Shown: piece by piece, positions 8,363 through 55,169 of the stretch | Numbering within the stretch: the first letter of the stretch is position 1 | Layout: every line of letters starts with the position of its first letter | Assembly: GCA_030605095.1 (NCBI GenBank) | Contig: JAUWBJ010000002.1 | Span: forward strand, 2,355 to 66,354 | Length of the DNA stretch: 64,000 bases | DNA from: Candidatus Omnitrophota bacterium | Lineage (GTDB): Bacteria > Omnitrophota > Gorgyraeia > JABMRN01 > RBG-13-46-9 | Direction of reading: 5' to 3' | Made by a program: the position numbers and the translations under genes | The notes under the pieces: model-generated | What the model was told of the DNA's origin: nothing | Databases searched by the model: none | The model's input: only the letters and a program-made list of their open reading frames with translations

Positions 8363-10336
8363 ATGAGAACTCAAAAAAATATAGTTTCTAGTTTTAAAAA
8401 AATAAGGAAGGTTAATTTCGGGGCCAGATTCTATAAAGTGGACTTGCATTTTCATACACCGGCATCCGAAGACGCAAGAGGAAAAAACCGCTATAATTTC
8501 AATCCCTACAAAGCTAAGTATCCTACCCATGATTGCGATTTCGAAAAACATTGCGACAAGGTTAAAAAGATTCAGGAAAAAATATTGGCTAATGCAAGAG
8601 AAGTTGCCGCGAAGATAGTCAAGAGATTTGTCGAAGAGAAACTTTCCTTAGTTGCCATAACTGACCATAACGCCATAGGGACATTGTGGCTCGATGCAGG
8701 TTCCAAAGCCGGCATAATGGATTTAAAGGCGCCTACATGGTACGAAATAATTGATGACGAGGCCGAGAAGATAAATGCACAAACAGGCAAAAAGGTTGTA
8801 ACCATACTGCCGGGCGTGGAGATAAGCTGCACAGGGATTCATATTCTGGCGGTTTTTCCGCCACATGAACCTCGGCGGGCGATTCATTTTGTAATATGCG
8901 ACCTTTTGGAAGAAATGGGTTTTGCCATTAAGGAGTGGGGGAAAAATCCTAAGGTCGGTAAAAGAAGCGTAATAGATGCCGTGGATTTAATCCAGCGAAA
9001 AGGCGGAATCGCCATAATCGCACACATAGACGGAAGCGATCAGGCCTTATTGAAACTTTACAAACTTAACAGCGGTGCGATGAAAAACGTGTTTTGTAAC
9101 CAGAAGTTATCGGCCGTTGAGATCGTGAATCCCTCAAAGTTTAGCAGGCAGAATAAAAAGCTCAAAATGACAATAAAGAACTGGATTAAATCGTTAAGGG
9201 TCAAGAGGGAAATTGCCCCAATTGCATATCTTCAGGGTTCGGATGCGCACGATTTAAAATCGATAGGCAAAAGGTTTACTTTTTTAAAGATGACGGTCCC
9301 CTCTTTTACCGGGTTAAAAATCGCGGTGTGGATTCCTGCCTCAAGGGCCAGAATATCTGAACTTCACAAGAGAGTGACAAAAGGTCTCTACATATACGGC
9401 GTGGAGATAAAAAATAAATATTTCGGCAGGCGTTTCATAAGGTTTAACCGTCACCTCAACTGCGTTGCCGGAGAGAAGGAGTCGGGCAAATCGTCCATTT
9501 TCCAATTGATGCAGAAGGCCGTAAGGCCCGATTCCACAAAAATCAAAGGGGACGTTAAACTGTTCGTTGAAAAGGTAATTGATTCAAGACCGCATCATTA
9601 CGCTTTTTGCAATGATAATAAGAGCGATTTTGTAGATTTATATTCAATAAACAAGGATAAAGGAACGGTAGCCAGAATCAATGCGAGCCGGATGAAGGAA
9701 TTGATGATAGAACCCAAATTTTATCATTCGGGTAAAATCGAGAAATTGATTTCCTCCAAGAATGATTTAAACGCATTTTTAATAAAACATTTCGGAAAGC
9801 CCACAAGACGGAATGTCGCTAATTTTAACAGGATGTTTTCTATTCCGAATTTTCTTGAAACAAAAGAAGAACGGCTTCTTTATGCGGAAGGAGATAACGG
9901 CAGATACAAGCTGCACGTAAATATTAACTGGCATACCGGAAAAGCGAAGATGATGGATTTTTTCAAGTTGCGTAATAGTTTGAGAAGAATTGCCATAATT
10001 TCTATGATAGTTATAAGCGGTAGTTTCGGGCCGTTAATAATTGACGCGCCTGAAAGTAATTTTGATAACGAGGATATTGCACATTTTCTCGTTCCTATCA
10101 TCAAGAAGTATAAAGATTTACGGCAAATTATATTATTTACGGGCAATCCAATTTTAGTCGTAAATTCGGACCCGGAAAATTACGTTTTATTAAGCACAAA
10201 AGGTAAAAAATTTGCCGGTATTAACTCGGGTTTTTCCATTGATGAGAAGGATCAGAAGGAGCACCTTATTAACCTGATGGAAGGCGGGTTAAAGTCGTTT
10301 AAAAAGAGGGCAATTAGATATGGAACTAAGAAATGA
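8363..10336 (+). CDS. PHP-domain phosphoesterase fused to a RecF/OLD-type ABC ATPase (candidate defence or repair nuclease-ATPase)
   Basis: PHP motifs HFH (29-31), DH (101-102), H221 and GSDAH (292-296). N-terminal ABC strand plus Walker A (369-377), a signature-like motif (537-549), Walker B and D-loop (IIDAPESNFD, 559-568). The H-loop is altered to LFTGNP. Confidence 0.6.
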   Translation: MRTQKNIVSSFKKIRKVNFGARFYKVDLHFHTPASEDARGKNRYNFNPYKAKYPTHDCDFEKHCDKVKKIQEKILANAREVAAKIVKRFVEEKLSLVAITDHNAIGTLWLDAGSKAGIMDLKAPTWYEIIDDEAEKINAQTGKKVVTILPGVEISCTGIHILAVFPPHEPRRAIHFVICDLLEEMGFAIKEWGKNPKVGKRSVIDAVDLIQRKGGIAIIAHIDGSDQALLKLYKLNSGAMKNVFCNQKLSAVEIVNPSKFSRQNKKLKMTIKNWIKSLRVKREIAPIAYLQGSDAHDLKSIGKRFTFLKMTVPSFTGLKIAVWIPASRARISELHKRVTKGLYIYGVEIKNKYFGRRFIRFNRHLNCVAGEKESGKSSIFQLMQKAVRPDSTKIKGDVKLFVEKVIDSRPHHYAFCNDNKSDFVDLYSINKDKGTVARINASRMKELMIEPKFYHSGKIEKLISSKNDLNAFLIKHFGKPTRRNVANFNRMFSIPNFLETKEERLLYAEGDNGRYKLHVNINWHTGKAKMMDFFKLRNSLRRIAIISMIVISGSFGPLIIDAPESNFDNEDIAHFLVPIIKKYKDLRQIILFTGNPILVVNSDPENYVLLSTKGKKFAGINSGFSIDEKDQKEHLINLMEGGLKSFKKRAIRYGTKK

Positions 10337-10395
10337 GCTTCAGGACTCCGTAGAATGTGGCTTGGATTGGTTGATACGCCGTCAAAAGCTAGATG

Positions 10396-10457
10396 ACAGG
10401 ACACTGTCTCCTGTGTGAATCGAAGACACTGTCCGGTGTGTTCGGACAATGTCTCTG
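10396..10457 (+). promoter_or_regulatory. Three spaced copies of the palindrome GACANTGTC (putative operator array)
   Basis: ggacactgtctcc (10396-10408), agacactgtccgg (10423-10435) and ggacaatgtctct (10445-10457). They sit 70-130 nt upstream of the ORF at 10527. Confidence 0.35.
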
Positions 10458-10526
10458 TATATGTGTGATTGAGGTCTCTAAGAAGAAAAGGTATTTAAAG
10501 AGTAAGGTAGATTAAGGAGGTGCATT

Positions 10527-10883
10527 ATGAAACAAAGGTTGATACAAATTGCGGAAGATTGCCCTGTTGACAGAGGAATAGTTCAAAAAATTCCTGTACA
10601 TGTCATTCAATACGAAGAATTGTCGAAGCACCCATATAAATACGATGAGAAGAATTTCCATGAACAAGTTAACTTAATTCGCAGAGGGAAAAAGCCAGGA
10701 GAATTGAAATTAAAAAAATATACCATTCGTCGAAATCCCCTTCCCAAAAAATATGGTTGGGGTATTCATGTAAATGAAGATGGAAAACTCGCACTTGTTG
10801 GATGTGAGACGAAAAAATACAAGGAATTAGAAAAAGATCCTAATGTCAAAAAAACAAGGGTAAGCAGAAACAAGAAAATTTGA
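10527..10883 (+). CDS. Hypothetical protein (118 aa, Lys-rich)
   Basis: ATG preceded by TAAGGAGGTG. No recognised domain. Confidence 0.4.
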   Translation: MKQRLIQIAEDCPVDRGIVQKIPVHVIQYEELSKHPYKYDEKNFHEQVNLIRRGKKPGELKLKKYTIRRNPLPKKYGWGIHVNEDGKLALVGCETKKYKELEKDPNVKKTRVSRNKKI

Positions 10884-10905
10884 GGCATAATATTATCAGT
10901 TAAAA

Positions 10906-11100
10906 TTGATGATAACGAAAAGGAAATATTTAATGGCATACGGTTACAATAATAGAGATTTTGAAGAAATGTCTTGGGGGTTCGCCATACTCAACTTTAT
11001 TGTAATTGCAGTTTTGATGGGCGGAATAATCACTATTCCGCTGGCATTGATTTGGATATTTTTTATTGCCCCGGCAATTCTTAAGAATTGGAAGAATTAA
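10906..11100 (+). CDS. Small hydrophobic membrane peptide
   Basis: WGFAILNFIVIAVLMGGIITIPLALIWIFFIAPAIL gives 1-2 predicted TM helices. The start may be the internal Met. Confidence 0.3.
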   Translation: MMITKRKYLMAYGYNNRDFEEMSWGFAILNFIVIAVLMGGIITIPLALIWIFFIAPAILKNWKN

Positions 11101-11217
11101 AACAAAAATGAGTCGAGTCTTAACTTTTAATTTGAACCCCACACCCCATTTTCTCTGCCTTCGCTGAATTGCTTTCGCGTTCAGCTTCGGCGGATCAGCC
11201 TCCGGCTGAAAAAATAA

Positions 11218-11240
11218 CCTGTCGGCAGGCAGGGATGTGT
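11218..11240 (+). repeat. Left copy of a 21-bp direct repeat (TGTCGGCAGGCAGGGATGTGT)
   Basis: 20 of 21 positions match 12118-12138. It ends 14 bp before the ATG at 11254. Confidence 0.5.
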
Positions 11241-11253
11241 ATGATAAAAATAT

Positions 11254-12111
11254 ATGAATGCATTTGAATATATTCTTTCAAAACAAATTCTTTGGGCACA
11301 CAATAACAAAATAAAGCTTGTTGGTAGCAAAGGCAAACGAGGTCGACCAGCCTATACACCAAGACTGGAGAATAATTTATTCGAACCTTTAAAACCATCT
11401 GTGAGGAGAGACTTCGAAAGTGGCGATGGAGGGGAATTAACAGGAAATCCTTCAAAGATGAGTGCGCTCCATTCTTCATCAGCATTAGGAGTAAATATCT
11501 TCCAATATTGGTTAAAAACAGAACAAATTCCAAAGATTGCAGCCGCGTGTGGTTTCTGTAACAAAAATAACAACAGGTCCTGGAATATTAAGTTTGAACA
11601 GAAATACCCTATAAGTAAGAAATTCAGGTACAGTCCAAACATCGATGTTGTCATAGAGAATTCGTTGGAAACAAAGTTTAGAGTATTTGCAATCGAATGT
11701 AAATTCTCAGAAGCGTATTCTTCGCATAAGCACTCAGGGCTTAAACAAAAATATATCAAATTGGATGAAGCATGGGATAAAGTGTCACACCTACGCACTT
11801 TTGCAAAATCAATAAGTCCAGAAGATCGCAAGTTTAATTACCTCCACCCGGCGCAACTAGTTAAACATATCCTGGGATTGACGAAAAAGTTTGGCAAGAA
11901 TAAATTCCGTCTTCTTTATCTCTGGTACGATTGTTTGGGCCATGAGGGAGCAAGGCACAAGGATGAAATAGACGAATTCACAAAGATTACCAGGAGAGAC
12001 GGCATTCGTTTTCATGCTTTGAGCTACCAAGAGCTCATTATTAGATTGTCCTCTGAATACAGTAACAAGCATGAAAGTTATATTAAATACATATCTGAAC
12101 GTTATCTATAA
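11254..12111 (+). CDS. Hypothetical protein with a PD-(D/E)xK-like nuclease motif
   Basis: NIDVVIE...FAIECKF fits the D...(E)xK core of restriction-endonuclease-like folds. The gene is exactly flanked by the 21-bp direct repeats. Confidence 0.4.
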   Translation: MNAFEYILSKQILWAHNNKIKLVGSKGKRGRPAYTPRLENNLFEPLKPSVRRDFESGDGGELTGNPSKMSALHSSSALGVNIFQYWLKTEQIPKIAAACGFCNKNNNRSWNIKFEQKYPISKKFRYSPNIDVVIENSLETKFRVFAIECKFSEAYSSHKHSGLKQKYIKLDEAWDKVSHLRTFAKSISPEDRKFNYLHPAQLVKHILGLTKKFGKNKFRLLYLWYDCLGHEGARHKDEIDEFTKITRRDGIRFHALSYQELIIRLSSEYSNKHESYIKYISERYL

Positions 12112-12117
12112 AAGGCC

Positions 12118-12138
12118 TGCCGGCAGGCAGGGATGTGT
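12118..12138 (+). repeat. Right copy of the 21-bp direct repeat (TGCCGGCAGGCAGGGATGTGT); contains the perfect palindrome CCTGCCGGCAGG
   Basis: Starts 7 bp after the stop codon of the 11254-12111 gene. The palindrome lies at 12116-12127. Confidence 0.5.
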
Positions 12139-12157
12139 TCATATTTAAAAGAAAACC

Positions 12158-12955
12158 ATGAAAATATCTAAACCATTAGTAGTGTTTGACCTTGAGACAA
12201 CAGGTACATGGATAGAGAAAGACAAAATAGTAGAAATCGGAATGATTAAGTGTCTCCCTGACGGTTCAAAGAAAGATTACGTAAAGCGCGTGAATCCCGG
12301 CATGCCGATTCCTTCGAGTGTCAGCAAGGTTACAGGAATCACAAACGAAGATGTCAAAAATGCCCCACCATTTAAAAGTATAGCTGCGGAAATATTATTT
12401 TTCATAGACAAATACGATCTGGCAGGCTTTGGCATAGAGCGTTTTGACCTACCTATCCTCGAAAGAGAAATGGTAGAGGCTGGCTTAAAATTTGAGCGCG
12501 GCGACAGAGTGGTTTATGACGCACAGAAAATATATCACATACACGAGAAAAGAACGCTAGTAGCTGCTTACCAGTTTTACTGCAATAAGGATCTTGTTAA
12601 GGCTCATTCGGCGATGGGCGATGTGGAGGCGACCATCGAAATACTTGATGATCAGGTTAGAAGATATGGTACGGAAAAGGAAGGAATAGAATCCCTAAAA
12701 GAACTTGACTATACCCGCTCCACGGAATATTTCGACAAAGAGAGGAAATTCCGTTGGTGGAACGGAGAGCTTTACCCGGTATTCGGAAAGTTTGCACGAA
12801 GACATAGCATAAAGGAGATCGCACAAAAAGAACCCTCATATCTAGAATGGATATTGAACCAGGATTTCACCAAAGATGTTAAGCTGATGGTAAAAGGAGC
12901 CCTCGAAGGCAAATTCCCCGAACCATCGGCAAAATCGGATATAGGAATAGGGTGA
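12158..12955 (+). CDS. DEDDh 3'-5' exonuclease (DnaQ/epsilon-like) with C-terminal extension
   Basis: Exo I VVFDLETTG, Exo II and Exo III HSAMGDVEAT motifs. Confidence 0.75.
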   Translation: MKISKPLVVFDLETTGTWIEKDKIVEIGMIKCLPDGSKKDYVKRVNPGMPIPSSVSKVTGITNEDVKNAPPFKSIAAEILFFIDKYDLAGFGIERFDLPILEREMVEAGLKFERGDRVVYDAQKIYHIHEKRTLVAAYQFYCNKDLVKAHSAMGDVEATIEILDDQVRRYGTEKEGIESLKELDYTRSTEYFDKERKFRWWNGELYPVFGKFARRHSIKEIAQKEPSYLEWILNQDFTKDVKLMVKGALEGKFPEPSAKSDIGIG

Positions 12956-13054
12956 ATAAAAATTGCAAACAATACAAAACCTACATGCTAGTTTTTCAAA
13001 CGTCTGCGATTTTGAAAACGGAAAATCGCAGACATTACAGAAACTTACCTAACT

Positions 13055-13585
13055 ATGAAGAATATTTTAACGAAATTGGCTGGTGGCGATCTTCGTTCTA
13101 TTGGAAATGTAAATAGTGTCGTGAGGGAGGTATTGAATAATCCTTCATTATTTAAGGATGTTTTCAATGGCTTATCTAATAATGATCCCGTTATAAAGAT
13201 GCGCTCTGCTGATGCTATTGAAAAGATTACCTCAAAGCACCCGGAATATCTTCATCCATTCAAGAAAAGATTAATTTGCCAAATAGCGAAGATTGAGCAA
13301 CAAGAGGTTCGTTGGCACCTAGCCCAAATTTTCCCTCGCCTTAGAATTACCCCCAAAGAAAAAGGTGAAGTAGTAAGAATTCTCTTTGATTACCTTGAAG
13401 ACAAAAGCAAAATTGTTAAAACATTCTCAATGCAGGCACTTTCTGACTTAGCTGAAAAAGATATTGTTTTGCGATCTAGAGTAATTAACTCGCTTAAAAA
13501 ATTAATTAAAACTGGCAGTCCGGCTATGAAAAGCAGAGGCAAAAAGTTACTGATTAAATTAAATAAAGTCAATGAAATGACATAA
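13055..13585 (+). CDS. Hypothetical alpha-helical (HEAT/ARM-like) protein
   Basis: 176 aa with repeated helical segments. Weak resemblance to AlkD-like HEAT-repeat proteins; not reliable. Confidence 0.3.
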   Translation: MKNILTKLAGGDLRSIGNVNSVVREVLNNPSLFKDVFNGLSNNDPVIKMRSADAIEKITSKHPEYLHPFKKRLICQIAKIEQQEVRWHLAQIFPRLRITPKEKGEVVRILFDYLEDKSKIVKTFSMQALSDLAEKDIVLRSRVINSLKKLIKTGSPAMKSRGKKLLIKLNKVNEMT

Positions 13586-13752
13586 CAAAGACCAGCCCGG
13601 GGGGGGTCATACCGGACAAAGCTCGAACCGCCTAAATGATTTTCTAACTTGGTTAGCTTTGCCGAGTTAGGATACACAAAAGGTATATTATATAACTTGT
13701 TTTTATTCGATAAGTAAGGTATATTTATATATACAGAAAAAGGAGGTAAATT

Positions 13753-14232
13753 ATGAAAAGAAAATTGATGCTTATCGCGCTTTTAGTCTCTGTGTTAACC
13801 CTTAGTGTTATGCCGCTTGAGGTTTATGCACTTGACCATGGTAAAACAAAAGGGCAAAAAGGGCACCAGTGGGATCTTGAAAAAAAGTTCTCCTTCAAGG
13901 CGCATTTAATACTCGCGAAGAAAGAAGAACTTGGCCTTTCGGACGCACAGGTGGCTAAAATCAAAGAATTGAAAATGAAGACCACAAAGGATTTAATCAG
14001 AAAAGATGCCGAAATCAAGATACTCGCCCTCGATATAAAAGCCGCGATGTGGGAAGATCCGATAAACACAAGCGCTGTAAACAAATTAATCGATAAAAAA
14101 TACGACCTTAAGAAGGAAAAAACCAAATCTTCGATAGGAGCTTATACTGCATTAAAGGGCATTTTGACAAAAGGGCAAAAAGAGAAGATGAAAGGGTTCC
14201 TGAAGAAGTGCAAAAAACAAAAGATGCAGTAA
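13753..14232 (+). CDS. Periplasmic Spy/CpxP-family (LTXXQ-motif) protein
   Basis: Signal peptide plus LSDAQVAKIKEL and LTKGQKEKMKGF motifs. Confidence 0.5.
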   Translation: MKRKLMLIALLVSVLTLSVMPLEVYALDHGKTKGQKGHQWDLEKKFSFKAHLILAKKEELGLSDAQVAKIKELKMKTTKDLIRKDAEIKILALDIKAAMWEDPINTSAVNKLIDKKYDLKKEKTKSSIGAYTALKGILTKGQKEKMKGFLKKCKKQKMQ

Positions 14233-17130: not shown

Positions 17131-18212
17131 GTAGATTTATTCACATATAGCGTCTGGGTGGGATAGGCGAATTCAATGCCACGTTTTTCAAATTCTTCCT
17201 TTACGGCAAAATTAATCTCTTGCTGAATATCCATATATTTATTGTAATCCCTGCTCATAACGTAGTAAACAACTTCAATAACGAGGTTGAAATCGCCGTA
17301 TGAAGAGAAATGCGCGCGGTCAAAAGTCGTATCCTTAACGTTTTTTATCACTTTCTCGATTACGCCTGGTATCTCTTTTAACTTTTTAAGGGGCGTCTGG
17401 TATGTAACGCCAAGCCTGAAAACAACTCTCCTTTTTCCCATCCTTTTATAGTTGCGCACCCTGGATGAGGTAAGGTCTTTGTTGGAAAAAACAACCTGCT
17501 CTCCGCCGAGTGAGCGTATGCGCGTGGTCTTAATTCCGATATGCTCGATGGTTCCTAAATAGTCCCCTATTATGATAAAATCTCCGATTTCAAACGGCTT
17601 GTCAAAAAGAATCGCGAAATAACTGAATAAATCGCCCAGAATCGCCTGGGCCGCTAAAGCTATTGCCACGCCTCCTATACCCAGCCCTGCGATAACGGCT
17701 GATATTTTGAATCCCAGATTGTCCAGGAAAAACGTAATCGCCAGACCCCATACAACTACCTTTACGACTTTTAAAATTCCGGTCAGACTGCGCTCTAAAG
17801 TTTTATCTTTTCCTCTTTTTGCCGAATAAATATCAAACCCGTAATCCGTAAGGGCTATGGCTAAACGCGCTATAAACATCACCAGAATAGCCATCATTAC
17901 AGTGTTGATGCCTTTTAAGAGCAGCGGATTTAAAGTCAGGGTATTTACGCTTATATATAAAACGCCGAAATACGCTAAAGGAAGGGCTATATTTTGAACA
18001 ATTCCAATCAGAAAGTCATCCAGGGTGGTAACGGTTTTCTCCGCCCATTTTTTTAAGCGTTTTAGAAGAAAATGGCGGAATATTTTAATACCGACATAAC
18101 CTGCAAAAAACAGAAGAACGCATATCAAATAATCCGCGATACGGTTTCCGAGAAAAACATTTTCCATAATATCCTGAAACATTTTATCCTCCGCCGGATG
18201 TGGCCCGGACAA
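17127..18212 (-). CDS. Mechanosensitive ion channel, MscS family
   Basis: TM helices followed by the conserved MscS beta-domain (...GDLFSYFAILFDKPFEIGDFI...). Confidence 0.85.
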   Translation of the reverse strand: MSGPHPAEDKMFQDIMENVFLGNRIADYLICVLLFFAGYVGIKIFRHFLLKRLKKWAEKTVTTLDDFLIGIVQNIALPLAYFGVLYISVNTLTLNPLLLKGINTVMMAILVMFIARLAIALTDYGFDIYSAKRGKDKTLERSLTGILKVVKVVVWGLAITFFLDNLGFKISAVIAGLGIGGVAIALAAQAILGDLFSYFAILFDKPFEIGDFIIIGDYLGTIEHIGIKTTRIRSLGGEQVVFSNKDLTSSRVRNYKRMGKRRVVFRLGVTYQTPLKKLKEIPGVIEKVIKNVKDTTFDRAHFSSYGDFNLVIEVVYYVMSRDYNKYMDIQQEINFAVKEEFEKRGIEFAYPTQTLYVNKST

Positions 18213-20148
18213 GTTTTTCGAGCCGCAGCCACTGGTTGTCGATGTCTCTTTGTATTTCTTCTAAGACGTGCTTGTTTCCTTCTTTAAAGAGATGCTTGAA
18301 ACGGCCTTGTGTTCTTAAAAATTCTACAACAGGTTTTCTCTCTTTAGGCTTGTAGGTGAAATGCCAGATTCCTTTTTCAATTTCAATTAACGGCCAATAG
18401 CCTGTCTCTACGGCTAACTTGGAAATTTTCACCGTGTCTTCCTGCGGATAACGCCATCCGCGATGGCACAATGACAAGACATTTAAGAATGCGGGCCCCT
18501 CTACGGCAAACGCTTTCTGTGATTTCGTTACAAGGTCATTCCAGTGCGAAATCGAACCCTGGGCAACGTAAGGGATATTGTGCGCCGCAACAATGGCGGT
18601 GAGGTCCTTTCGTAGTTGGGGTTTGCCATAACTTGCTTTACCGGCAGGGGCTGTCGTTGTAGATGCGCCTTTTGGAGTTGCGCTGGAACGTTGTACCCCG
18701 GTATTTTCGTAGGCTTCGTTATTATAGCAGACATAGACGAAATTATGTCCGCGTTCAAATGCGCCGGACATAGACTGAAGTCCGATGTCGTAAGAATTTC
18801 CGCTTAATGATATTTTCCCGTTTCTTTTCGTAATAACAGTATGGTTCTTCTTTAATTGCGGACAATAAACGAAGCCCTTATAATCTTCTAGAAACACTTG
18901 TTGTTTGTTGCCGTAAAGCCTTCTTCTCGAATATAACTTATGATTTAAATAATTAAACCCTATACCTATTCTATAAACCCCGTCTTCTTTTCTTTGAGAA
19001 ATACTACAGTTTTTACCCAATTTTAAAACCAGCTCCACCATATTATTCATGAGTTCTTTCGAAGCTGTAATAAACTTAATGTGATAACTCCTGCGATTTT
19101 TTTGTTTAGTTATGGAGCCGTCCCCTTCTATCAGCGAACCGAATATTTCTTTAAGATAGTGCTTATTAAGTGATAATACCCATTTTGGTATTTTTTTATT
19201 TTTAAATCCCTTGCCGCATTCTCTTTCCAAATATTCGTATATTTGTTTTGATTGGAAGTCAACAGATCTGTTGCATTTAAACGGAGAAAGACCGAGATCT
19301 TTTAATAGTCTATAGATCTTTTCTTTCTTATCCTTATTTGACTGGTATATGCGTATAAGATAGCCGGATTTGCTTTTATATAAACATCCTTCAGTAATAT
19401 ACCAACCTAAAAATTTTAACCATTTTTTAGTATCAAATTTTGAAAATTCCTTTTGATATCTATATTTAGGAATCTTTGGAACTTCTATTACCATCCACAG
19501 CGTATCGTTTCCATCCCCATACCAATTGAACTTTCTCGAAAAAGCTGTTTTGTATCTTTTTAATAAATCGACGCCTTTGATAAACTCCCATTTACCCTTA
19601 TACCACATAGGCACATTATGATTCGGCGTTATTAAAAAGTCTATAAAACGGCTTTTGCCTCTTATCATTCTACCTTCATATGGATATTTATGCAGTTTTT
19701 CATTCTCCTGCAATTCCAAAATATTGGTTTCGGGATTTACCGACCAAATTTTTTCTCCTACTTTTATATTTTTTATATTTCTAAATCCGTTTTCGGTAAA
19801 TATTTCTGTATCTTCTGAATAGCAACCGCCATCGCCGCCGAAGGCAACGAACTTTATATCTTTAGTAATTTTACCTTTTTTCTTCAAAGCGCGGTAGGCT
19901 GTTTCTGCGCCACTTATTGTCGCAGCCACGTTTTCAAAAGCGTTATGTATAAAAGGAACGTTCCACGCCGTATACGGATATATAGTGGTAGCGACTTCTA
20001 AACATCCTGTCGCGGCTCCTGCTACGATAGGCGACGTTGTTCCCATAAGAATCTGCCTCACGGCGATAGAAGCTCCACAACCCGAGCAAAGCCTATGTCC
20101 CGGAGTCAATCTTTCCGGTATCTTTGATAGCTCTTTAATATTTGCCAT
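18184..20148 (-). CDS. porB: Pyruvate:ferredoxin oxidoreductase beta subunit (TPP-binding) interrupted by an in-frame intein
   Basis: N-extein ...FVAFGGDGG and C-extein SYDIGLQSMSGAFERGHNFVYVCYNNEAYENTGVQRSSATP match PorB. About 343 aa are inserted between them. Confidence 0.8.
   Translation of the reverse strand: MANIKELSKIPERLTPGHRLCSGCGASIAVRQILMGTTSPIVAGAATGCLEVATTIYPYTAWNVPFIHNAFENVAATISGAETAYRALKKKGKITKDIKFVAFGGDGGCYSEDTEIFTENGFRNIKNIKVGEKIWSVNPETNILELQENEKLHKYPYEGRMIRGKSRFIDFLITPNHNVPMWYKGKWEFIKGVDLLKRYKTAFSRKFNWYGDGNDTLWMVIEVPKIPKYRYQKEFSKFDTKKWLKFLGWYITEGCLYKSKSGYLIRIYQSNKDKKEKIYRLLKDLGLSPFKCNRSVDFQSKQIYEYLERECGKGFKNKKIPKWVLSLNKHYLKEIFGSLIEGDGSITKQKNRRSYHIKFITASKELMNNMVELVLKLGKNCSISQRKEDGVYRIGIGFNYLNHKLYSRRRLYGNKQQVFLEDYKGFVYCPQLKKNHTVITKRNGKISLSGNSYDIGLQSMSGAFERGHNFVYVCYNNEAYENTGVQRSSATPKGASTTTAPAGKASYGKPQLRKDLTAIVAAHNIPYVAQGSISHWNDLVTKSQKAFAVEGPAFLNVLSLCHRGWRYPQEDTVKISKLAVETGYWPLIEIEKGIWHFTYKPKERKPVVEFLRTQGRFKHLFKEGNKHVLEEIQRDIDNQWLRLEKLVRATSGGG
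18796..19824 (-). mobile_element. Intein with LAGLIDADG homing-endonuclease domain, inserted in porB
   Basis: Block A CYSEDTEIFT, block B TPNH, LAGLIDADG-like motifs LGWYITEGC and LIEGDGS, ends ...ISLSGN followed by +1 Ser. Confidence 0.7.
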
Positions 20149-21375: not shown

Positions 21376-21650
21376 CCCTTCTCCATTTTAATACACTTTA
21401 CCGGGCAGATGCTCGCGCATATCCCGCAACCCTTGCAGTAGTCATAGTCAAATCCTTCCATTTTTCCGTCTTTTACAAGAACGGAGGAATCGGGGCAGTA
21501 TATCCAGCATTGAAGGCAATTTATGCATTTGGGTTTATCCACAACCGGCTTAAAAGTCCGCCATGAACCTGTCTTATATTCCCTGGCAGTACCGCCTTTA
21601 TCTATAATTCCGGCTATCGGAATCTCTTTCCAGCCTTTTTTCTTTTTCAC
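21372..21650 (-). CDS. porD: Pyruvate:ferredoxin oxidoreductase delta subunit (2x[4Fe-4S] ferredoxin)
   Basis: CINCLQCWIYCP and CKGCGICASICP cluster motifs. GTG start. Confidence 0.8.
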   Translation of the reverse strand: MKKKKGWKEIPIAGIIDKGGTAREYKTGSWRTFKPVVDKPKCINCLQCWIYCPDSSVLVKDGKMEGFDYDYCKGCGICASICPVKCIKMEKG

Positions 21651-21764
21651 CCCGCCCTTCCTTTTCTTTTGATGCCAATCATTGTCTTTATTTTTGCTAA
21701 ACTACTCCCCCTCTTCCTTATGTAATTTGTTTTAATCTTTTTATTAGGAAGGGCGGGGTTCATC
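21647..21764. repeat. Inverted-repeat intergenic element, copy A (CACCCCGCCCTTCC ... GGAAGGGCGGGGTTCATC)
   Basis: 13-bp terminal inverted repeats around about 90 bp, with homology to copy B at 28934-29047. The left arm provides AGGAAGG SD plus the GTG start of porD. The right arm overlaps the porG stop. Confidence 0.5.
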
Positions 21765-26188: not shown

Positions 26189-28936
26189 TTATATTTCTTC
26201 TTTAAGTCTCATAACCTCTTGTCTTATTCCTAAGGTTATGGCTTCATAGTCATCTTTAGCGCCTAGTCTCGATCCTTCTTTTTTAAGTTCTTCTGCGTTA
26301 TGCGGTCTTCCGAAAACAATCGTAACAGGGTGGGGTCGTCTGGGAAAACGATTTGTTCTTGGCCAGGATTCATAGGAACCTTTGATATACACAGGAACCA
26401 ATCGAATGCTCAGTTCTTTTGCCAATATCCCGACTCCTTTTTTGAATTCTTTAACTTCTCCGTCAATTGACCTTGCTCCTTCGGGAAAGATGCAAGCTGT
26501 TTTGCCATTTCTCAAAATATAAGCACAAGCCTGTATCGCATCTATTAATTGCGCGCCAGGGTCGATAGGAATTATTCTGATTAATTTTACGATATTTCTA
26601 ATTATTGGAACTTCGAAATAGGCTCTATAACCAAGGAAGAACATATGTTTTTTTAACCATCGAGGTAGGGCTGCAACAATTAGGAACCCGTCCAAATAAC
26701 TACCGTGATTGGGGCAGAGAATAAATGCTTTGTTCGAAGGTAAATTTTTTATTCCAAAAACTTTAACCTGCCAGATAAGTTTAAATATTATATATAACAT
26801 CCCAGAGACTAATAGCGTGAAAAACCGCGCTATCCAACCGGGAAATAAATCTATTTTTTCAATTATATCTTTGGCTGGATTGGTCTTTAAAATATCACTC
26901 CATAAAGATAATCGAGTCTGGATTGCTGAGACTTCCTCGGTCCTTGGTTCTTTCTTTAAAATCAATTTCTCAATTTCAAGAATAAGTTCTCTTACTATGA
27001 AAATTTTAACCATTACAGAATCCGGTATGTCAATCTTTAAAATCTTTTCTAATGCAACCATTAATTCCGCGCGCCCTAACGAATCAAGGCCAAGATCGAT
27101 TTCCAAGTGGTCGTCCAACCGGATTTGCCTCTCTAAATCCGTTTCTTTACTTAAGGTTTTTATTATTTTCTTGGCAATTCCCGAAGAGAGAATTTTAAGG
27201 TCTTCACCTGTAAGGGAAATCTCCTCATCTATCTTTCTCAACCCCACGCCCATAAGTTCATCTAAATATCTATTCTTAATTTCAAATCTTTTTAACTTCC
27301 CTAAACGTGTCTGGGGTAAATCCTCACTTGTAACAACAAAGCCCATAATCCGTTTGTAGGGAGGGTATTGTTTAGACAGATTCTCCAAATCCCACTTAAT
27401 CATTCCATAAATATTAACCTCGCCAACCTTGCGGTAATAGTCCAAATCAGGCACAATGACCGCCATAAGCTTTTCCTCTTCTCTTTTACCAGTTGCTAAT
27501 ACGCATAATCCTTTAATAAAAGGGCTCTTGGCATAATGGGATTCCACCTCTTCGGGAGATATATTCTTTCCCGAGCTTAACACAATCAACTCTTTCTTCC
27601 TTCCCGTAAGACGGAGATACCCCTCTTTGTCCAGATAACCCAAATCTCCAGAATAGAACCAATTATCCTTTAAAACCTTTCTCGTCTCTTCGACTTCTTT
27701 ATAGTAGCCTCTCATAACATTAGGGCCTTTGATTGCCACCTCGCCTACGCCGTATTCGTCAGGTTCAGCAATTCTTAAGTTCACATCTGGAATTACTTTC
27801 CCCACAGAGCCTATTTTTTGTTTTTTCAATGGATTAAAAGTTGCTACCGGCGATGTTTCAGTAAGTCCGTATCCTTCCAGGATTGTAAAACCGATTTTCA
27901 CAAGAAACCTTGCTGCCTCTTCATTTAACTTAGCACCGCCACAAGCAAAAAATCTTAAATTTTTTCCGAAGGCACGGTGAATCTTTGACAATGCCAGCTT
28001 GGCCAAGTTAATTCCCGTAAACTTTCTCACCAACCACAATATCTCTATAAACCCTAAAAGGGAGAGTCTCATCAAAAACGGGACTTTCTTTATTCCATCT
28101 ACTATATGCTTATAAAACATATAAAAAAGCTGAGGTACTCCCGTTAATATCGTCACACCTGTCTTTCTCATACACGCAAGCAATTCCTCACTCTTAAGGC
28201 TTGAAATGTAGGTAATCTTGCTTTGAGAAAAAAGTGGTATAACGAGGGTCACCATAAATGGAAATGAATGATGCAGCGGTAATATAGACAGAACATTATC
28301 TTTATCTGAAAAGAGTTTTAATTTATCAATACTTTGAGAATTGGAATAAAAATTTTCATGGGTTAACATAACACCTTTTGGCCTGCCGGTAGTGCCTGAG
28401 GTATAAAGAATAGAGGCGATATCCTGGGGAGATGCCTCTGGCATAGATGTTATGGACTTTAAATCTGATACGGCAGATATCGTTTCCGAAAAAGAAATAA
28501 TTTCTTCGGACGATTTTTCAATGTCGAGGGCTATGATTTGTTGTAATGAAGGCACGCTATTAGTGAAGCCCGTAAATAACGAAAGTAATTTACTGGAGGT
28601 AAAGGCTACCTTGCTTTCTGAATCACTTAGAAAAAATTTTATCTCTTCTTGTCCGGATTGAGGATCAAGAGGGATAGCTATGGCCCCTCGAAGCATAATG
28701 CCAAAGTAGATCATTCCCCATTCAGGCCTGTTTTCCAGAACAATAGCGACTCTATCGCCTTTTTTTATCCCCGCTTTAAGTAAAGAATGTGCAACAGATT
28801 GAGAGACCCCGTAAAGCTCTTTATAGGTATACTTGACATAGACATCTTCTTTTTTCATTTGCATAACAATTCTATCAGGAAATTGATCAACTATTTCTCT
28901 TAATTTACCATGTAGAGTATATAATTTCTTATTCAC
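26189..28936 (-). CDS. Tri-domain acyl-ACP synthetase / lysophospholipid acyltransferase (AMP-binding + PP-binding + PlsC domains; Aas-like)
   Basis: AMP-binding motifs (YTSGTTGRPKG), carrier-domain serine (LGLDSLGRAELM), and the C-terminal HX4D acyltransferase motif (NHGSYLDG). GTG start is supplied by IR element copy B. Confidence 0.7.
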   Translation of the reverse strand: MNKKLYTLHGKLREIVDQFPDRIVMQMKKEDVYVKYTYKELYGVSQSVAHSLLKAGIKKGDRVAIVLENRPEWGMIYFGIMLRGAIAIPLDPQSGQEEIKFFLSDSESKVAFTSSKLLSLFTGFTNSVPSLQQIIALDIEKSSEEIISFSETISAVSDLKSITSMPEASPQDIASILYTSGTTGRPKGVMLTHENFYSNSQSIDKLKLFSDKDNVLSILPLHHSFPFMVTLVIPLFSQSKITYISSLKSEELLACMRKTGVTILTGVPQLFYMFYKHIVDGIKKVPFLMRLSLLGFIEILWLVRKFTGINLAKLALSKIHRAFGKNLRFFACGGAKLNEEAARFLVKIGFTILEGYGLTETSPVATFNPLKKQKIGSVGKVIPDVNLRIAEPDEYGVGEVAIKGPNVMRGYYKEVEETRKVLKDNWFYSGDLGYLDKEGYLRLTGRKKELIVLSSGKNISPEEVESHYAKSPFIKGLCVLATGKREEEKLMAVIVPDLDYYRKVGEVNIYGMIKWDLENLSKQYPPYKRIMGFVVTSEDLPQTRLGKLKRFEIKNRYLDELMGVGLRKIDEEISLTGEDLKILSSGIAKKIIKTLSKETDLERQIRLDDHLEIDLGLDSLGRAELMVALEKILKIDIPDSVMVKIFIVRELILEIEKLILKKEPRTEEVSAIQTRLSLWSDILKTNPAKDIIEKIDLFPGWIARFFTLLVSGMLYIIFKLIWQVKVFGIKNLPSNKAFILCPNHGSYLDGFLIVAALPRWLKKHMFFLGYRAYFEVPIIRNIVKLIRIIPIDPGAQLIDAIQACAYILRNGKTACIFPEGARSIDGEVKEFKKGVGILAKELSIRLVPVYIKGSYESWPRTNRFPRRPHPVTIVFGRPHNAEELKKEGSRLGAKDDYEAITLGIRQEVMRLKEEI

Positions 28937-29047
28937 CCCGCCCTTCCTTTCTTTTCAATGCAATCCCTGTTTTTATCTTTTGCAATCACTTCGTTCTTCA
29001 TTATATTATTATTCATTGTAATTTTTTTAGGAAGGGCGGGGTTCATC
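28934..29047. repeat. Inverted-repeat intergenic element, copy B
   Basis: Same terminal inverted repeats and homologous interior as copy A. It encodes the last residues (DEPRPS) and stop of the MFS gene, and the SD plus GTG start of the Aas-like gene. Confidence 0.5.
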
Positions 29048-32142: not shown

Positions 32143-33216
32143 CTAAAACTGGTTTCTACGCTGCTCTTGTCTTCCTGATTTCATCGAGGAAAATTTATTA
32201 TACCTATTAAGATATCTGGGATTACTTGTTCCGATTTTTGAAAAATATTTTTTTACTTCTTCTGGTCTATTAATATATACCGTTTGATGGTTTATGTCGA
32301 TGACGGGATGATAATTAAGTTTCTCCAGCATCCTTTTAATTGACTTCACTAATGGAATAGAATAATTTCTAAAACTCATCTTTAAATAGCTATATCCTTT
32401 CCCGGCTACTTTATAGCTATGCTTATAAACACATCCGTCGGTGTCAAAAAGTCCTCGCAGGCAACTGGCTTGGTATCCCTTTTTCTCAAATATCCAATCG
32501 GGAACATCTATCTGATTCGTGACTTTATTTCCTTTTTTGATTCCCATTTTCTCCAAAAATTTCACTAGGTTTGTAGCCGAGACTACTATATTAGATCTCC
32601 CGTCTTTCTTTCCTATCTGCATTTTTGAAGATATACCAAATAAATTCTTTACCAGGCGTTAAATATAAAAAGCGTAATCTTGATCTTTCTTTCCGTTAAA
32701 TGATACAGTAATCTGATGATTGCTAGAAACCCCGCCGTCTCCTAACATGATACCGATAAATTCTGTTAATTTAAATGATTTTTCAGGCCGTTTAATTTCC
32801 TTTCTTGTAACAAATCCCAATTTTCTAATTCTCTCTAGAAAGCTGGGGTCAGAAAGAATTTTCTTTTTTGTAGACAAGCCTCCTCTTTTCCTGCTTTCAA
32901 GCGTACCCGGTGGGCCATATAGTTCAATGCGGCGTTTGCCGCCTAATTTGCTGGCTTTTTTTACACTCCAATACGGTGGTCGCACTTCTATATCTTCGGG
33001 TAATTTTGTACCTAATTTGTAACTTATTAAAAATAAGGGCCAAAATGAAATGTTATTTTTTTCTCTCTTCCAGTCCCTCAAAGTTCTATCGCAAACACAC
33101 GCAATCTTTGCAAGCTCTGAAACATCCATATTCAATGTAGAAAGAGCTCCTTCCAGGAAATCCCGTTGTTTGCCTTTTCGAAATTTAATTCTTGAATTTA
33201 GTTTTACTTCTTGCAT
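32143..33216 (-). pseudogene. HTH-LAGLIDADG endonuclease gene interrupted by a single in-frame TAA (ORFs 33216-32659 and 32622-32143 are in the same frame)
   Basis: Motif 1 GIMLGDGG is in the upstream ORF and motif 2 GLFDTDGCV in the downstream ORF. They are separated by a TAA plus 12 in-frame codons. Confidence 0.55.
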
Positions 33217-33701: not shown

Positions 33702-33702
33702 T

Positions 33703-33790
33703 GCTAAAGCGGAGAGGGAGGGACAGGCACCCGTTCCTATTCAAAACAGCTCTTTTAACACCAATTTTAACACCAAAATTCACCTAAACT
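33703..33790 (-). repeat. Upstream-element repeat (family 2) with tandem GGTGTTAAAA motifs
   Basis: About 80% identical to 47607-47690. The minus strand reads GGTGTTAAAATTGGTGTTAAAAG...TTGAATAGGAACGGG. Confidence 0.4.
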
Positions 33791-34496: not shown

Positions 34497-34553
34497 CCAA
34501 GGCGAAAAAAGAGAATCCCGCACTTTTTTCGCCGAGACCAAATCAGTACAAAA
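34497..34553 (-). repeat. tRNA-trailing hairpin repeat (family 1), full copy
   Basis: Minus strand GGCGAAAAAAG-UGCGGGAUUCU-CUUUUUUCGCC, immediately 3' of tRNA-Arg. Confidence 0.45.
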
Positions 34554-34554
34554 G

Positions 34555-44208: not shown

Positions 44209-44542
44209 ACCTCCCTGCCTGCCGGTAGGCAGGCTCTTACTATTAATGTTTATTTGACAATATATTATGATATGCGTCTTTTGTCAAGGAATTAAAGATT
44301 TTTGGCTAAAAATTCCCCTTTATAAGAAAGCTCTTGACATTTTCCGGGAAATATGCTATTCTTACCCTCAAGATAGTGAGGTTATTGCTATTTTTGATGT
44401 TTGATTTTGTGAAAATTGTGAGTAGTTAAGCTAACCGCATGTTGGCCTCAGACAGTTGCATACCATTCATAAAGCTCGCAAGTAAGCAATTCATAATTCA
44501 TTTGTATAACCCCTTAAAGCAGTACCGCACAAGGAAGATGTT

Positions 44543-54235: not shown

Positions 54236-54264
54236 ACGATTTAACCTTCTTCCAAAGAACAATT

Positions 54265-55167: not shown

Positions 55168-55169
55168 CA

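What the first reader, a model, noticed from the sequence alone, without database searches (positions are those of the whole stretch)
11218..12140. Single gene precisely bracketed by 21-bp direct repeats
TGTCGGCAGGCAGGGATGTGT (11220-11240) and TGCCGGCAGGCAGGGATGTGT (12118-12138) match at 20 of 21 positions. They flank ORF 11254-12111 at 14 bp upstream of the ATG and 7 bp past the stop. The right copy embeds the perfect palindrome CCTGCCGGCAGG. The encoded 285-aa protein has a PD-(D/E)xK-like D...ExK core (NIDVVIE...FAIECKF). The geometry suggests either a site-specific gene-cassette insertion (a target-site duplication or recombination site) or paired regulatory palindromes around a nuclease gene.
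Basis: seen in the sequence. Interest (0 to 1): 0.6.

Follow-up and report, generated by a model that had tools for sequence, protein, structure and literature searches.

The report
Nuclease gene between copies of hairpin repeat
A restriction-endonuclease-like gene sits between two copies of a small hairpin-forming intergenic repeat that marks the joints of swappable single-gene modules in one uncultured bacterial lineage; this is a real but modest example of modular gene shuffling at short repeats.

Summary

The repeat is not a transposon-type target duplication and not a genome-wide REP. It is the right-hand part (GC palindrome plus right stem arm) of a nested-hairpin intergenic element. That element separates single-gene modules in a small variable, nuclease-rich segment upstream of a conserved DEDDh exonuclease gene.

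- A contig with a 94.6% identical exonuclease region lacks the nuclease gene. It has one intact element there, preceded by other genes separated by the same element.
- A contig with an 86% identical copy of the nuclease module has the same left element but a different right neighbour.
- Homology breakpoints fall inside the palindrome (12115-12131) and in the loop of a second hairpin (13016|13017).
- A 75% identical homologue in another array is again flanked by a related hairpin repeat, which also separates that contig's other genes.
- None of the roughly 60 window ORFs put to Pfam is an integrase or transposase, and there are no attC features.

Best reading: recombination between copies of regulatory hairpin elements, like PeSL shuffling in T4-like phages. 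The recombination mechanism is inferred, not shown.

The parts
8363..10336 (+). TrlF/Ppl-like PHP + AAA ATPase gene (657 aa), first gene of the variable segment
   Evidence: PADLOC Ppl, E 6.8e-30. NCBIfam TrlF_fam_ATP, 231 bits, below the family cut-off. No counterpart in L013.
10527..11100 (+). DUF6157 gene (10527-10883) and a 64-aa membrane-like ORF (10906-11100); variable-segment genes to the left of the element
   Evidence: Pfam DUF6157, E 1.9e-20. No close relatives in the protein database apart from the identical sequence.
11137..11153 (+). Left stem arm and start of the A/T loop of the hairpin element 'E' (CCCCACACCCCATTTTC)
   Evidence: Matches CCCCACATCCCATTTTC of the elements in L012, L013 (three copies) and L051 with one mismatch. 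Pairs with GGGATGTG at 11233-11240 in the DNA fold, z = -2.95.
11154..11209 (+). 55-56-nt GC-rich double-hairpin insertion inside the A/T loop of E, absent from all other E copies
   Evidence: Alignment A2 and fold. It shares the 12-mer GCCTTCGCTGAA with a hairpin insert in a Bacteroidia MAG element (L042).
11218..11240 (+). Repeat copy 1: GC palindrome 'P' with a shortened left arm (CCTG TCGG CAGG), then CAGG and the right stem arm of E (GGGATGTGT)
   Evidence: L012 has the full form GCCTGCC-TGTC-GGCAGGC at the same place.
11241..11253 (+). 13-nt leader of the nuclease module (ATGATAAAAATAT), identical in L012
11254..12111 (+). REase-ARP family PD-(D/E)xK nuclease gene (285 aa)
12115..12138 (+). 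Repeat copy 2: perfect 14-bp palindrome GCCTGCCGGCAGGC, then AGG and the E right arm GGGATGTGT. It has no E left arm, so it is a truncated element. Homology with L012 ends at 12131 and homology with L013 starts at 12115.
   Evidence: Fold.
12158..12955 (+). DEDDh (RNase_T/DnaQ-like) 3'-5' exonuclease gene, conserved in Candidatus Omnitrophota MAGs; the right-hand anchor of the variable segment
   Evidence: Pfam RNase_T, E 1.7e-19. 3362 homologues; of the listed hits that carry an organism name, all are Omnitrophota/Omnitrophica. 94.6% nt identity to L013.
12990..13045 (+). Second palindrome 'IR': the exonuclease 3' arm (AGTTTTTCAAACGTCTGCGATTTT), an 8-nt loop, then a conserved leader (AAAATCGCAGACATTACAGAAAC) of the next gene. 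Synteny breakpoints with L013 and L012 abut at 13016|13017, within the loop.
   Evidence: (I20), (z = -5.3). The same leader lies just upstream of three other unrelated genes (L013 52-87 and 843-878; L012 968-1002).
13055..13585 (+). HEAT-repeat-like gene carrying the IR-type leader
   Evidence: weak HEAT_2 match.
44210..44235 (-). Third copy of the GC palindrome (GCCTGCC-TACC-GGCAGGC followed by AGGGAGGT), in the 5' leader of a DeoC/LacD-type aldolase gene (43411-44208, minus strand)

Best explanation
The 21-mer is the right-hand part of a lineage-specific, nested-hairpin intergenic element.

**Anatomy.**
- The basic form is an 8-bp stem with a 14-nt A/T loop: ACACATCC-CATTTTCAAAAATA-GGATGTGT.
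- The composite form carries a 16-20-bp GC palindrome (CCTGCC[TGCC]GGCAGGCAGG) inserted just before the right arm.

**Where it sits.** Copies of this element, and of a second hairpin/leader element (IR), lie between the single-gene modules of a short hyper-variable, nuclease-rich segment. That segment lies just upstream of a conserved DEDDh exonuclease gene in a narrow uncultured lineage.

**How the repeats arose.** The REase-ARP nuclease gene is one facultative module. It was joined to its neighbours by recombination inside the GC palindrome. The unit [palindrome right half - GATGTGT - 13-nt leader - ORF - 4 nt - palindrome left half] lies next to the exonuclease gene here. It lies next to a different gene in L012 and is absent from L013. 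The two 'direct repeats' are therefore the two joints, attL/attR-like: a full element upstream and a truncated one downstream.

**Mechanism I commit to.** Short-homology recombination, possibly stimulated by hairpin breakage, between copies of these elements. This is the bacterial-chromosome counterpart of PeSL-mediated modular shuffling in T4-like phages. It needs no element-encoded recombinase. The element's everyday role is probably a transcript-end or insulating hairpin between independently acquired genes.

**Shown:** the anatomy, the presence/absence and neighbour polymorphism, the breakpoint positions, and the absence of mobility genes among the window ORFs tested. **Inferred:** the recombination mechanism, the direction (gain or loss) and the regulatory role.
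For: 1. **The repeat is half of a bigger element.** The full left arm and loop lie at 11137-11153 and pair with 11233-11240. Composite elements in L013 and L012 fold as an outer stem plus an A/T mini-hairpin plus a GC hairpin, with z = -4.9 and -3.6.
2. **The same element separates unrelated genes.** This is seen three times in L013, once in L051 (directly after a YjbQ-type ORF, judged from its sequence and not put to Pfam here) and once in L012.
3. **Presence/absence.** L013's exonuclease region is 94.6% identical to window 12115-13016. It is preceded by one intact composite element and a 309-aa gene, with no nuclease gene.
4. **Same module, different neighbour.** L012 57-970 matches window 11218-12131 at 85.8%. 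It then continues directly with the IR leader and another gene.
5. **Breakpoints sit in hairpins.** The L012 and L013 homologies overlap only in 12115-12131, which is the palindrome. They abut at 13016|13017, one base from the centre of the IR loop.
6. **One cassette definition explains both junction sets.** With the module bounded in the palindrome, both the window and the L012 junctions follow. A target duplication needs two different insert ends.
7. **Independent recurrence.** The 75% identical homologue in L053 lies between copies of a related hairpin (CCACCCT-GCAAAAATAT-AGGGTGG, 16-nt exact direct repeat). That hairpin also occupies the other intergenic gaps of the contig.
8. **No mobility genes.** None of the roughly 60 window ORFs put to Pfam is an integrase, transposase or resolvase.
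9. **A documented precedent exists.** PeSL elements flank single ORFs, and recombination between them deletes or inserts those ORFs (PMC2839356, PMC4122927).
Against: - Only three informative comparator contigs exist (L012 1.2 kb, L013 5.8 kb, L051 1.7 kb). All are metagenomic. None shares the window's genes to the left of the element, so there is no strict empty site with both flanks syntenic.
- The direction of the event is unknown.
- The shared identity at the joint (17-23 bp) is at the lower limit for RecA-type recombination.
- No promoter consensus was found in the element, so the 'promoter + terminator' architecture of true PeSLs is not met.
- The hairpins lack a clear downstream T-run on the sense strand. 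The T-run lies on the antisense strand, so a terminator role is unproven.
- Four other lineages of the nuclease gene (L003-L005, L006-L008, L009-L011, L054) show no flanking repeats.
- No excised circle or alternative junction has been observed.
Confidence: 0.5

Rival explanations
1. Insertion with long target duplication. The nuclease gene, or double-strand breakage linked to it, inserted just downstream of a pre-existing composite element in front of the exonuclease gene. The insertion duplicated about 23 bp of target, as described for restriction-modification and solitary nuclease genes.
For: The window has two copies and L013 has one copy that aligns with both. This is the 'b1' pattern of Furuta et al. 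2010 (PMC2853133). That paper reports a solitary mcrA-type gene with 26/26-bp repeats and notes that such repeats often span start or stop sites. None of the window ORFs put to Pfam is a mobility gene. A second case lies in the same window: a LAGLIDADG ORF (54265-55125) is bracketed by 38-nt direct repeats that match at 36/38.
Against: In L012 the right-hand copy stops after the palindrome (GGCAGGCAGG|AACGG). The insert would then need different ends in the two genomes. The repeated sequence is not unique target DNA. It belongs to a repeat family that also flanks other genes. The left flank beyond the element is not syntenic with L013.
Confidence: 0.2
2. A dedicated site-specific cassette system. 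The GC palindrome (7-bp inverted arms around a GCCGGC spacer in its long form), and perhaps the IR palindrome (12-bp arms with an 8-bp spacer), are core sites of a recombinase encoded elsewhere. The single-gene modules are excised and integrated as circles, analogous to integron cassettes.
For: The arrays are same-strand, tightly packed single genes separated by imperfect palindromes whose inner part varies. The breakpoints lie at palindrome centres. Four unrelated left contexts join the IR leader at the same base (G|AACRG). The geometry is compatible with tyrosine-recombinase core sites; this last point rests on my own knowledge, not on a test.
Against: No recombinase gene was found among the ORFs tested across the 64-kb window or on the comparator contigs. 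There is no RYYYAAC...GTTRRRY attC signature. The breakpoints are central rather than at an R' box. The palindrome also occurs in a housekeeping 5' leader. Several junctions carry only half a site.
Confidence: 0.1
3. Purely regulatory repeats. Each copy is simply the transcript-end or operator hairpin that belongs to its neighbouring gene, and its position on both sides of the nuclease gene has nothing to do with how the gene arrived.
For: All copies lie between same-strand genes, just upstream of a start codon. The copy at 44210-44235 runs into a GGGAGG Shine-Dalgarno sequence of an aldolase gene. The palindromic half-sites would suit a dimeric binding protein. Hairpin folds are significant, z = -2.6 to -5.3.
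Against: This does not explain why homology with two relatives breaks exactly inside the palindrome and the IR loop. It does not explain why copy 2 lacks the left arm, or why the gene content between element copies differs among close relatives. No promoter-like site and no sense-strand terminator was detected at the elements. No Rfam family matches.
Confidence: 0.12
4. A genome-wide REP/MITE-type selfish repeat, or a chance match.
For: The elements are extragenic palindromes. A third palindrome copy lies 32 kb away. Nested insertions of GC hairpins into the element suggest some autonomous spread.
Against: Shuffles give 0 expected matches. The exact 18-mer occurs only twice in the source MAG among 185,579 species genomes scanned. 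Profile searches find 1 E, 2 IR and 3 P copies in 64 kb. No terminal inverted repeats with a short target duplication surround the gene.
Confidence: 0.03

Closest known systems
PeSL (promoter-early stem-loop) regulatory cassettes of T4-like phages (Arbiol, Comeau & Krisch 2010, PMC2839356; Comeau et al. 2014, PMC4122927)
   Same: A short, conserved, hairpin-containing intergenic motif is repeated between small accessory ORFs in a hyper-variable region. Close relatives differ by insertion, deletion or replacement of single ORFs, with crossovers inside the motifs. No dedicated recombinase is known.
   Different: This case is in a bacterial chromosome flanked by housekeeping genes, not in a phage. 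No sigma-70-type promoter was detected in the motif. The motif is a nested hairpin with a GC palindrome. Mini-circles have not been demonstrated. Copy number is very low.
Insertion with long target duplication of restriction-modification or solitary nuclease genes (Nobusato et al. 2000, cited from the reference list of Furuta et al. and not read here; Furuta, Abe & Kobayashi 2010, PMC2853133)
   Same: A restriction-type nuclease gene with no mobility genes is flanked by direct repeats longer than 20 bp that lie at gene boundaries. A related genome carries a single copy.
   Different: The repeated sequence is a member of a repeat family that also flanks other genes. The relative L012 has a shorter right copy. 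There is no methyltransferase partner. The left flank is not syntenic in the 'empty' relative.
Integron gene cassettes / attC arrays (including CALINs)
   Same: Same-orientation, tightly spaced single-gene modules are separated by imperfect palindromes with a conserved outer stem and a variable inner structure. The cargo is variable and rich in defence or nuclease genes.
   Different: There are no R''/R' (RYYYAAC/GTTRRRY) boxes and no intI. The elements are 32-105 nt with a continuous stem. Breakpoints are at the centre of the palindrome, not at the R' box.
REP/BIME-type repetitive extragenic palindromes
   Same: Extragenic GC-rich palindromes lie at gene ends and could stabilise transcripts and promote rearrangement.
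   Different: Copy number is very low (three palindromes in 64 kb, and two exact 18-mers in the source MAG). The elements are concentrated in one variable segment.
Pfam PF22558 REase-ARP (PD-(D/E)xK superfamily)
   Same: Full-length match above the gathering threshold, a conserved D...ExK core and a restriction-endonuclease fold.
   Different: Nothing. The protein is an ordinary member (100-62% identical to the 120 best hits listed).

Membership tests
Pfam REase-ARP (PF22558) / PD-(D/E)xK nucleases | Profile match above the curated gathering score over the full domain | tested here: met
   65.3 bits against a cut-off of 27; residues 18-285 match profile positions 12-270 of 270.
Pfam REase-ARP (PF22558) / PD-(D/E)xK nucleases | Conserved catalytic D...(D/E)xK residues | tested here: met
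   D131 and E148 are invariant and K150 is at least 90% conserved in 25 homologues.
Pfam REase-ARP (PF22558) / PD-(D/E)xK nucleases | Restriction-endonuclease-like alpha/beta fold | tested here: met
Pfam REase-ARP (PF22558) / PD-(D/E)xK nucleases | Nuclease activity and sequence specificity | not testable with these tools
   Needs biochemistry. Whether it cuts the GCCGGC-containing palindrome is unknown.
Integron cassette / attC | attC with R'' RYYYAAC and R' GTTRRRY boxes, L''/L' boxes and extrahelical bases | tested here: not met
   Read directly from the sequences. The E/P element has no AAC...GTT boxes. The IR palindrome has AAC/GTT at its stem ends in L012 but is a continuous 15-bp stem without an unpaired spacer.
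Integron cassette / attC | Integron integrase (intI) next to the array | tested here: not met
   None of the roughly 60 window ORFs put to Pfam is a tyrosine recombinase. None appears on L012, L013 or L053.
Integron cassette / attC | Cassette boundaries at the G|TT of R' | tested here: not met
   Breakpoints lie in the centre of the palindromes (12115-12131; 13016|13017).
Transposon / MITE with target-site duplication | Terminal inverted repeats at the ends of the inserted segment, a short fixed-length duplication and a transposase (for autonomous elements) | tested here: not met
   The module ends (ATGATAAAAATAT... and ...TAAAAGG) are not inverted repeats. The duplication is 23 bp here and shorter in L012. 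No transposase was found.
REP/BIME | High genomic copy number of an extragenic palindrome | tested here: not met
   Two exact 18-mers in the source MAG. Three palindrome copies in 64 kb by profile search. The MAG is fragmentary, so degenerate copies elsewhere are not excluded.
Insertion with long target duplication (Furuta et al. 2010) | Nuclease or RM gene flanked by direct repeats longer than 20-30 bp, with no mobility genes | tested here: met
   A 23-nt repeat matching at 22/23. It is above their 20-bp screen and below their 30-bp criterion. No mobility genes.
Insertion with long target duplication (Furuta et al. 2010) | Related genome with an empty site: one repeat copy and both flanks syntenic | tested here: inconclusive
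   L013 has one copy and a syntenic right flank. To the left, only the element itself is shared.
PeSL-like regulatory cassette | Conserved stem-loop motif repeated between accessory ORFs of a hyper-variable region, with indel or replacement breakpoints inside the motif | tested here: met
PeSL-like regulatory cassette | Consensus promoter within the motif, and terminator activity of the stem-loop | tested here: inconclusive
   No sigma-70-like site on the sense strand at the elements. Terminator-like calls appear only on the antisense strand. The promoter types of this phylum are unknown.
PeSL-like regulatory cassette | Excised mini-circles formed by recombination between flanking motifs | not testable with these tools
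   Needs inverse PCR or a junction-read search in the raw reads.

The most novel reading that the evidence does not exclude
The nested hairpins may be more than passive homology patches. They could be the sites of a dedicated cassette-exchange system distinct from integrons, with a trans-acting or still unrecognised recombinase, or hairpin-targeted breakage. Such a system would assemble arrays of single defence or nuclease genes in Omnitrophota-like bacteria. In addition, the 28-nt GC palindrome plus tail (GCCTGCCTGTCGGCAGGCAGGGATGTGT) is identical in this lineage and in a Bacteroidia MAG, and near-identical in a Collierbacteria MAG. It could be a self-spreading mini-element that inserts into hairpin loops.
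Probability: 0.1. Interest if true: 0.75.

Novelty: new variant of a known kind. Interest (0 to 1): 0.4.

Why it matters
If the reading is right, PeSL-type modular shuffling operates in a bacterial chromosome and not only in T4-like phages. Short regulatory hairpins would double as recombination joints for single accessory genes, here in a small nuclease and defence hot spot of a poorly known phylum. That would offer a simple, recombinase-free route by which solitary nuclease genes are gained, lost and swapped. It would also give a concrete sequence signature, element copies at module joints, for finding such hot spots in fragmentary metagenomic data. It is not a new kind of mobile element on present evidence.

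Tried and rejected
- **Transposon-type target duplication: rejected.** There are no inverted ends and no transposase. The right copy is shorter in L012. Homologues in four other lineages (L003-L005, L006-L008, L009-L011, L054) have no flanking direct repeat of 9 nt or more.
- **Genome-wide REP: rejected.**
- **Integron attC: rejected.** There are no R boxes and no intI, and the breakpoints are central.
- **Known structured RNA: nothing found.** Rfam gave no hit at E up to 10 on window 10300-13800, and none at E up to 1 on eight related loci apart from a 5S rRNA.
- **Phage origin of the elements: no support.** Three pattern scans of IMG/VR gave 0 hits.
- **CRISPR-repeat idea for the 28-mer: rejected.** No locus in the genome scan carries an array of it.
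- **A better empty site via the left neighbour: failed.** The DUF6157 search found no close relatives. More distant exonuclease relatives (L014, L052; 72-75% nt identity) lack all the elements.
- **Promoter or terminator role: nothing convincing.** The scan gave no sense-strand site at the elements.
- **Empty site for the second, LAGLIDADG case: failed.** The ribosome-recycling-factor product as I delimited it is not on record.
- **Covariation analysis of the hairpin: not attempted formally.** There are too few distinct copies. The changes seen within the lineage weaken pairing rather than compensate for it.
Full report
**Observation.** The identity extends two bases to the left. The repeated unit is therefore 23 nt (11218-11240 and 12116-12138, 22/23). 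A degenerate search with up to three mismatches finds three sites in the window against 0.00 expected from shuffles. The third is a related palindrome at 44207-44227 on the minus strand. The ORF 11254-12111 lies 13 nt after copy 1 and ends 4 nt before the 23-nt copy 2. The palindrome in copy 2 is perfect over 14 bp (GCCTGCCGGCAGGC, 12115-12128). Two other assemblies of the same organism (L001, L002) carry the identical arrangement.

**The gene.**
- The 285-aa product matches Pfam REase-ARP (PF22558) over its full length at 65.3 bits, against a cut-off of 27.
- In 25 homologues D131 and E148 are invariant, and K150 is conserved in at least 90%.
- The family is large (1784 hits) and unusually uniform. 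Members are about 285 aa, and the 120 best hits listed are 62-100% identical.
- Homologues at 73-75% identity sit in unrelated, defence-rich neighbourhoods. These include type I R-M, DpnI/NucS/PLD and methyltransferase genes.

This is an ordinary, horizontally mobile, solitary restriction-type nuclease gene.

**What the repeat is part of.**
- *L012* carries a nuclease gene whose product is 84% identical. Upstream it reads TAACCCCACATTCCATTTTCAAAAATAGCCTGCCTGTCGGCAGGCAGGGATGTGT, followed by the same 13-nt leader.
- *L013* has an exonuclease region 94.6% identical to the window's. The exonuclease gene there is preceded by CCCCACATCCCATTTTCAAAAATAGCCTGCCTGCCGGCAGGCAGGGATGTGT.
- Two further intergenic gaps of L013, and one gap on contig L051, carry the simpler CCCCACATCCCATTTTCAAAAATAGGATGTGT.

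The basic element (E) is thus a hairpin with an 8-bp stem (ACACATCC/GGATGTGT) and a 14-nt A/T loop. The composite form has a 16-20-bp GC palindrome (P) inserted just before the right arm.

In the window the left arm of E lies at 11137-11153. A further 55-56-nt GC-rich double hairpin is inserted in its loop (11154-11209). The whole element folds as a branched structure with z = -2.95. The cleaner composite copies give z = -4.9 and -3.6. Copy 2 has no left arm, so it is a truncated element.

**Distribution.**
- The exact 18-mer core occurs only at this locus in the source MAG (GCA_030604545.1). That MAG is labelled Deltaproteobacteria, although every listed exonuclease homologue that carries an organism name is from Candidatus Omnitrophota.
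- Profile searches of the 64-kb window find one E, two IR and three P copies.
- The third P lies in the 5' leader of a housekeeping aldolase gene and runs into its Shine-Dalgarno sequence.

So this is not a genome-wide REP, and the palindrome is not specific to nuclease genes.

**Comparative evidence for modular exchange** (blastn).
- L013 4864-5744 aligns with window 12115-13016. The homology starts in the palindrome and ends in the loop of a second hairpin.
- L012 57-970 aligns with window 11218-12131. It runs from palindrome to palindrome.
- L012 971-998 then aligns with window 13017-13044.

The nuclease module is therefore next to the exonuclease gene in the window and next to a different gene in L012. 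It is absent from L013. There a single intact composite element precedes the exonuclease gene, and five other same-strand genes lie upstream (an HNH gene and ORFs of 246, 533, 154 and 309 aa), most of them separated by E or IR elements.

The two homologies overlap only within 12115-12131, the palindrome. They abut at 13016|13017, one base from the centre of the IR loop. The IR leader (GAACRGRAAATCGCAGACRTTACARAAAC) begins at the same base in four different left contexts.

**The wider window.** The segment 8255-12140 holds a TrlF/Ppl-like ATPase gene, a DUF6157 gene, a 64-aa ORF and the nuclease gene. It has no counterpart in L013 and lies between housekeeping genes: pyruvate kinase to the left and the exonuclease and LpxL-type genes to the right. 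None of the roughly 60 window ORFs put to Pfam is an integrase, transposase or resolvase.

**Choosing between mechanisms.**
- *Classical target-site duplication* is excluded. There are no inverted ends and no transposase, and the duplication length is variable.
- *'Insertion with long target duplication'*, described for R-M and solitary nuclease genes (PMC2853133), fits the window-versus-L013 comparison. It also gains some support from a second case in the same window (see below). However, it needs the insert to end differently in the window and in L012.
- *Recombination at the palindrome* explains both junction sets with one definition. The module is bounded inside the palindrome: [P right half - GATGTGT - leader - ORF - AAKG - P left half].
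- *An independent recurrence.* The homologue in L053 (75% identical) is again bracketed by a 16-nt exact direct repeat (GCAAAAATATAGGGTG). That repeat is part of a related hairpin (CCACCCT-GCAAAAATAT-AGGGTGG; compare CAAAAATA-GGATGTGTCCC in L051). The hairpin also occupies the other intergenic gaps of the contig. The repeats are thus a property of the array, not of the nuclease gene.

The closest documented behaviour is that of PeSL cassettes in T4-like phages. There a conserved stem-loop/promoter motif flanks accessory ORFs, and recombination between motif copies deletes, inserts or replaces single ORFs (PMC2839356, PMC4122927).

I therefore commit, at about 0.5, to recombination between copies of these hairpin elements as the origin of the bracketing repeats. 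Short homology is the likely basis, perhaps aided by breakage at hairpins. A dedicated site-specific system (about 0.1) and long target duplication (about 0.2) remain open.

**Limits.**
- The comparators are short metagenomic contigs.
- There is no strict empty site with both flanks syntenic, and the direction of the event is unknown.
- No promoter, and no sense-strand terminator, was detected in the element. No Rfam family matches. The element's everyday function is therefore inferred only from its position and fold.
- Chimeric assembly is unlikely for L013. The longest stretch shared by its three E copies is 24 nt, which is shorter than the assembler's k-mer as I recall it (k = 31 for Logan; not checked here).

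**Verdict.** The repeats are joints between copies of a hairpin repeat family in a small hyper-variable segment. They are not a signature of a gene-specific mobile element. This is a new variant of known kinds (PeSL-like shuffling; repeat-flanked restriction genes) in a poorly studied lineage, and of moderate interest.

Noticed in passing
window 54199-55169 (minus strand): A second single nuclease gene is bracketed by direct repeats. A LAGLIDADG_3 ORF (54265-55125, 286 aa) lies between two 38-nt copies matching at 36/38 (55132-55169 and 54199-54236). On the minus strand they read TGCCCCGCTAGCTCATCTGGTAGAGCACCGC(C/T)TTTTTT, which resembles a tRNA 5' half (D arm) followed by a T-run. Copy 1 starts right after the stop codon of the ribosome-recycling-factor gene.
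   Followed up: partly
L012 50-83; L021 2760-2792; L023 5272-5304; L046 907-939; L050 2748-2836 and 5699-5728: The 28-mer GCCTGCCTGTCGGCAGGCAGGGATGTGT is identical in L012 (this lineage) and in a dispersed intergenic repeat of about 130 nt in a Bacteroidia MAG. A near-identical copy follows the 5S rRNA gene of a Collierbacteria MAG. Nested versions occur in another Omnitrophota MAG. The cross-phylum identity is unexplained.
   Followed up: partly
window 11154-11209 and L042 4107-4150: The 55-56-nt GC hairpin inserted in the loop of the window's element shares GCCTTCGCTGAA...TTCAGC with a hairpin inserted in the loop of the palindrome in a Bacteroidia MAG copy. This suggests that GC hairpins insert into hairpin loops.
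   Followed up: no
window 12990-13045; L013 52-87 and 843-878; L012 968-1002: A conserved leader of about 33 nt (GAACRGRAAATCGCAGACGTTACAAAAAC) lies 3-25 nt upstream of the start codons of four unrelated genes. After the exonuclease gene an inverted copy of it forms a 12-15-bp palindrome with the next gene's leader.
   Followed up: partly
window 33670-33711 / 34515-34556; 33709-33783 / 47610-47684: A 42-nt direct repeat (86% identical) flanks an unannotated 190-aa ORF (33822-34394) between a tRNA-Ser-3'-like fragment and tRNA-Arg. Two 75-nt copies (89% identical) that begin with a tRNA-Ser 3'-end-like sequence lie 13.9 kb apart. They may be old attachment-site remnants.
   Followed up: no
window 49544-49710 / 53709-53873: Direct repeats of about 165 nt (88% identical) lie 4.16 kb apart. 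They flank a block holding tRNA-Ser(tga), a 220-aa ORF, seryl-tRNA synthetase, RtcB and archease.
   Followed up: no
window 18184-20148, 32143-32622, 855-1133: The window holds further homing-endonuclease-type domains. A LAGLIDADG_3 domain lies inside a TPP-enzyme (pyruvate:ferredoxin oxidoreductase subunit) ORF and looks intein-like. A free-standing 159-aa LAGLIDADG ORF lies next to tRNA-Ser(gct). There is also a 92-aa GIY-YIG ORF.
   Followed up: no
window 10336-10527: The 190-nt gap upstream of the DUF6157 gene holds three direct copies of GACAYTGTC-type motifs (GACACTGTCTCC, GACACTGTCCGG, GACAATGTCTCTG). This could be an operator array.
   Followed up: no
window 21639-21764 / 28925-29047: Two intergenic stretches of about 125 nt, 7.3 kb apart, are 75-77% identical. 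They contain the inverted motif GAACCCCGCCCTTCC / GGAAGGGCGGGGTTC (families D10 and D13).
   Followed up: no
window 8363-10336: The TrlF/Ppl-like PHP + AAA ATPase is 657 aa, whereas the family profiles span 836-944 positions. It scores below the NCBIfam cut-offs, so it may be a shortened or divergent relative of the Ppl anti-phage protein.
   Followed up: no
L001 / L033 (GCA_030604545.1, contig JAUVVS010000097.1): The source MAG is labelled 'Deltaproteobacteria bacterium' at NCBI. Among the listed exonuclease homologues, every one that carries an organism name is from Candidatus Omnitrophota MAGs, so the label is doubtful.
   Followed up: no
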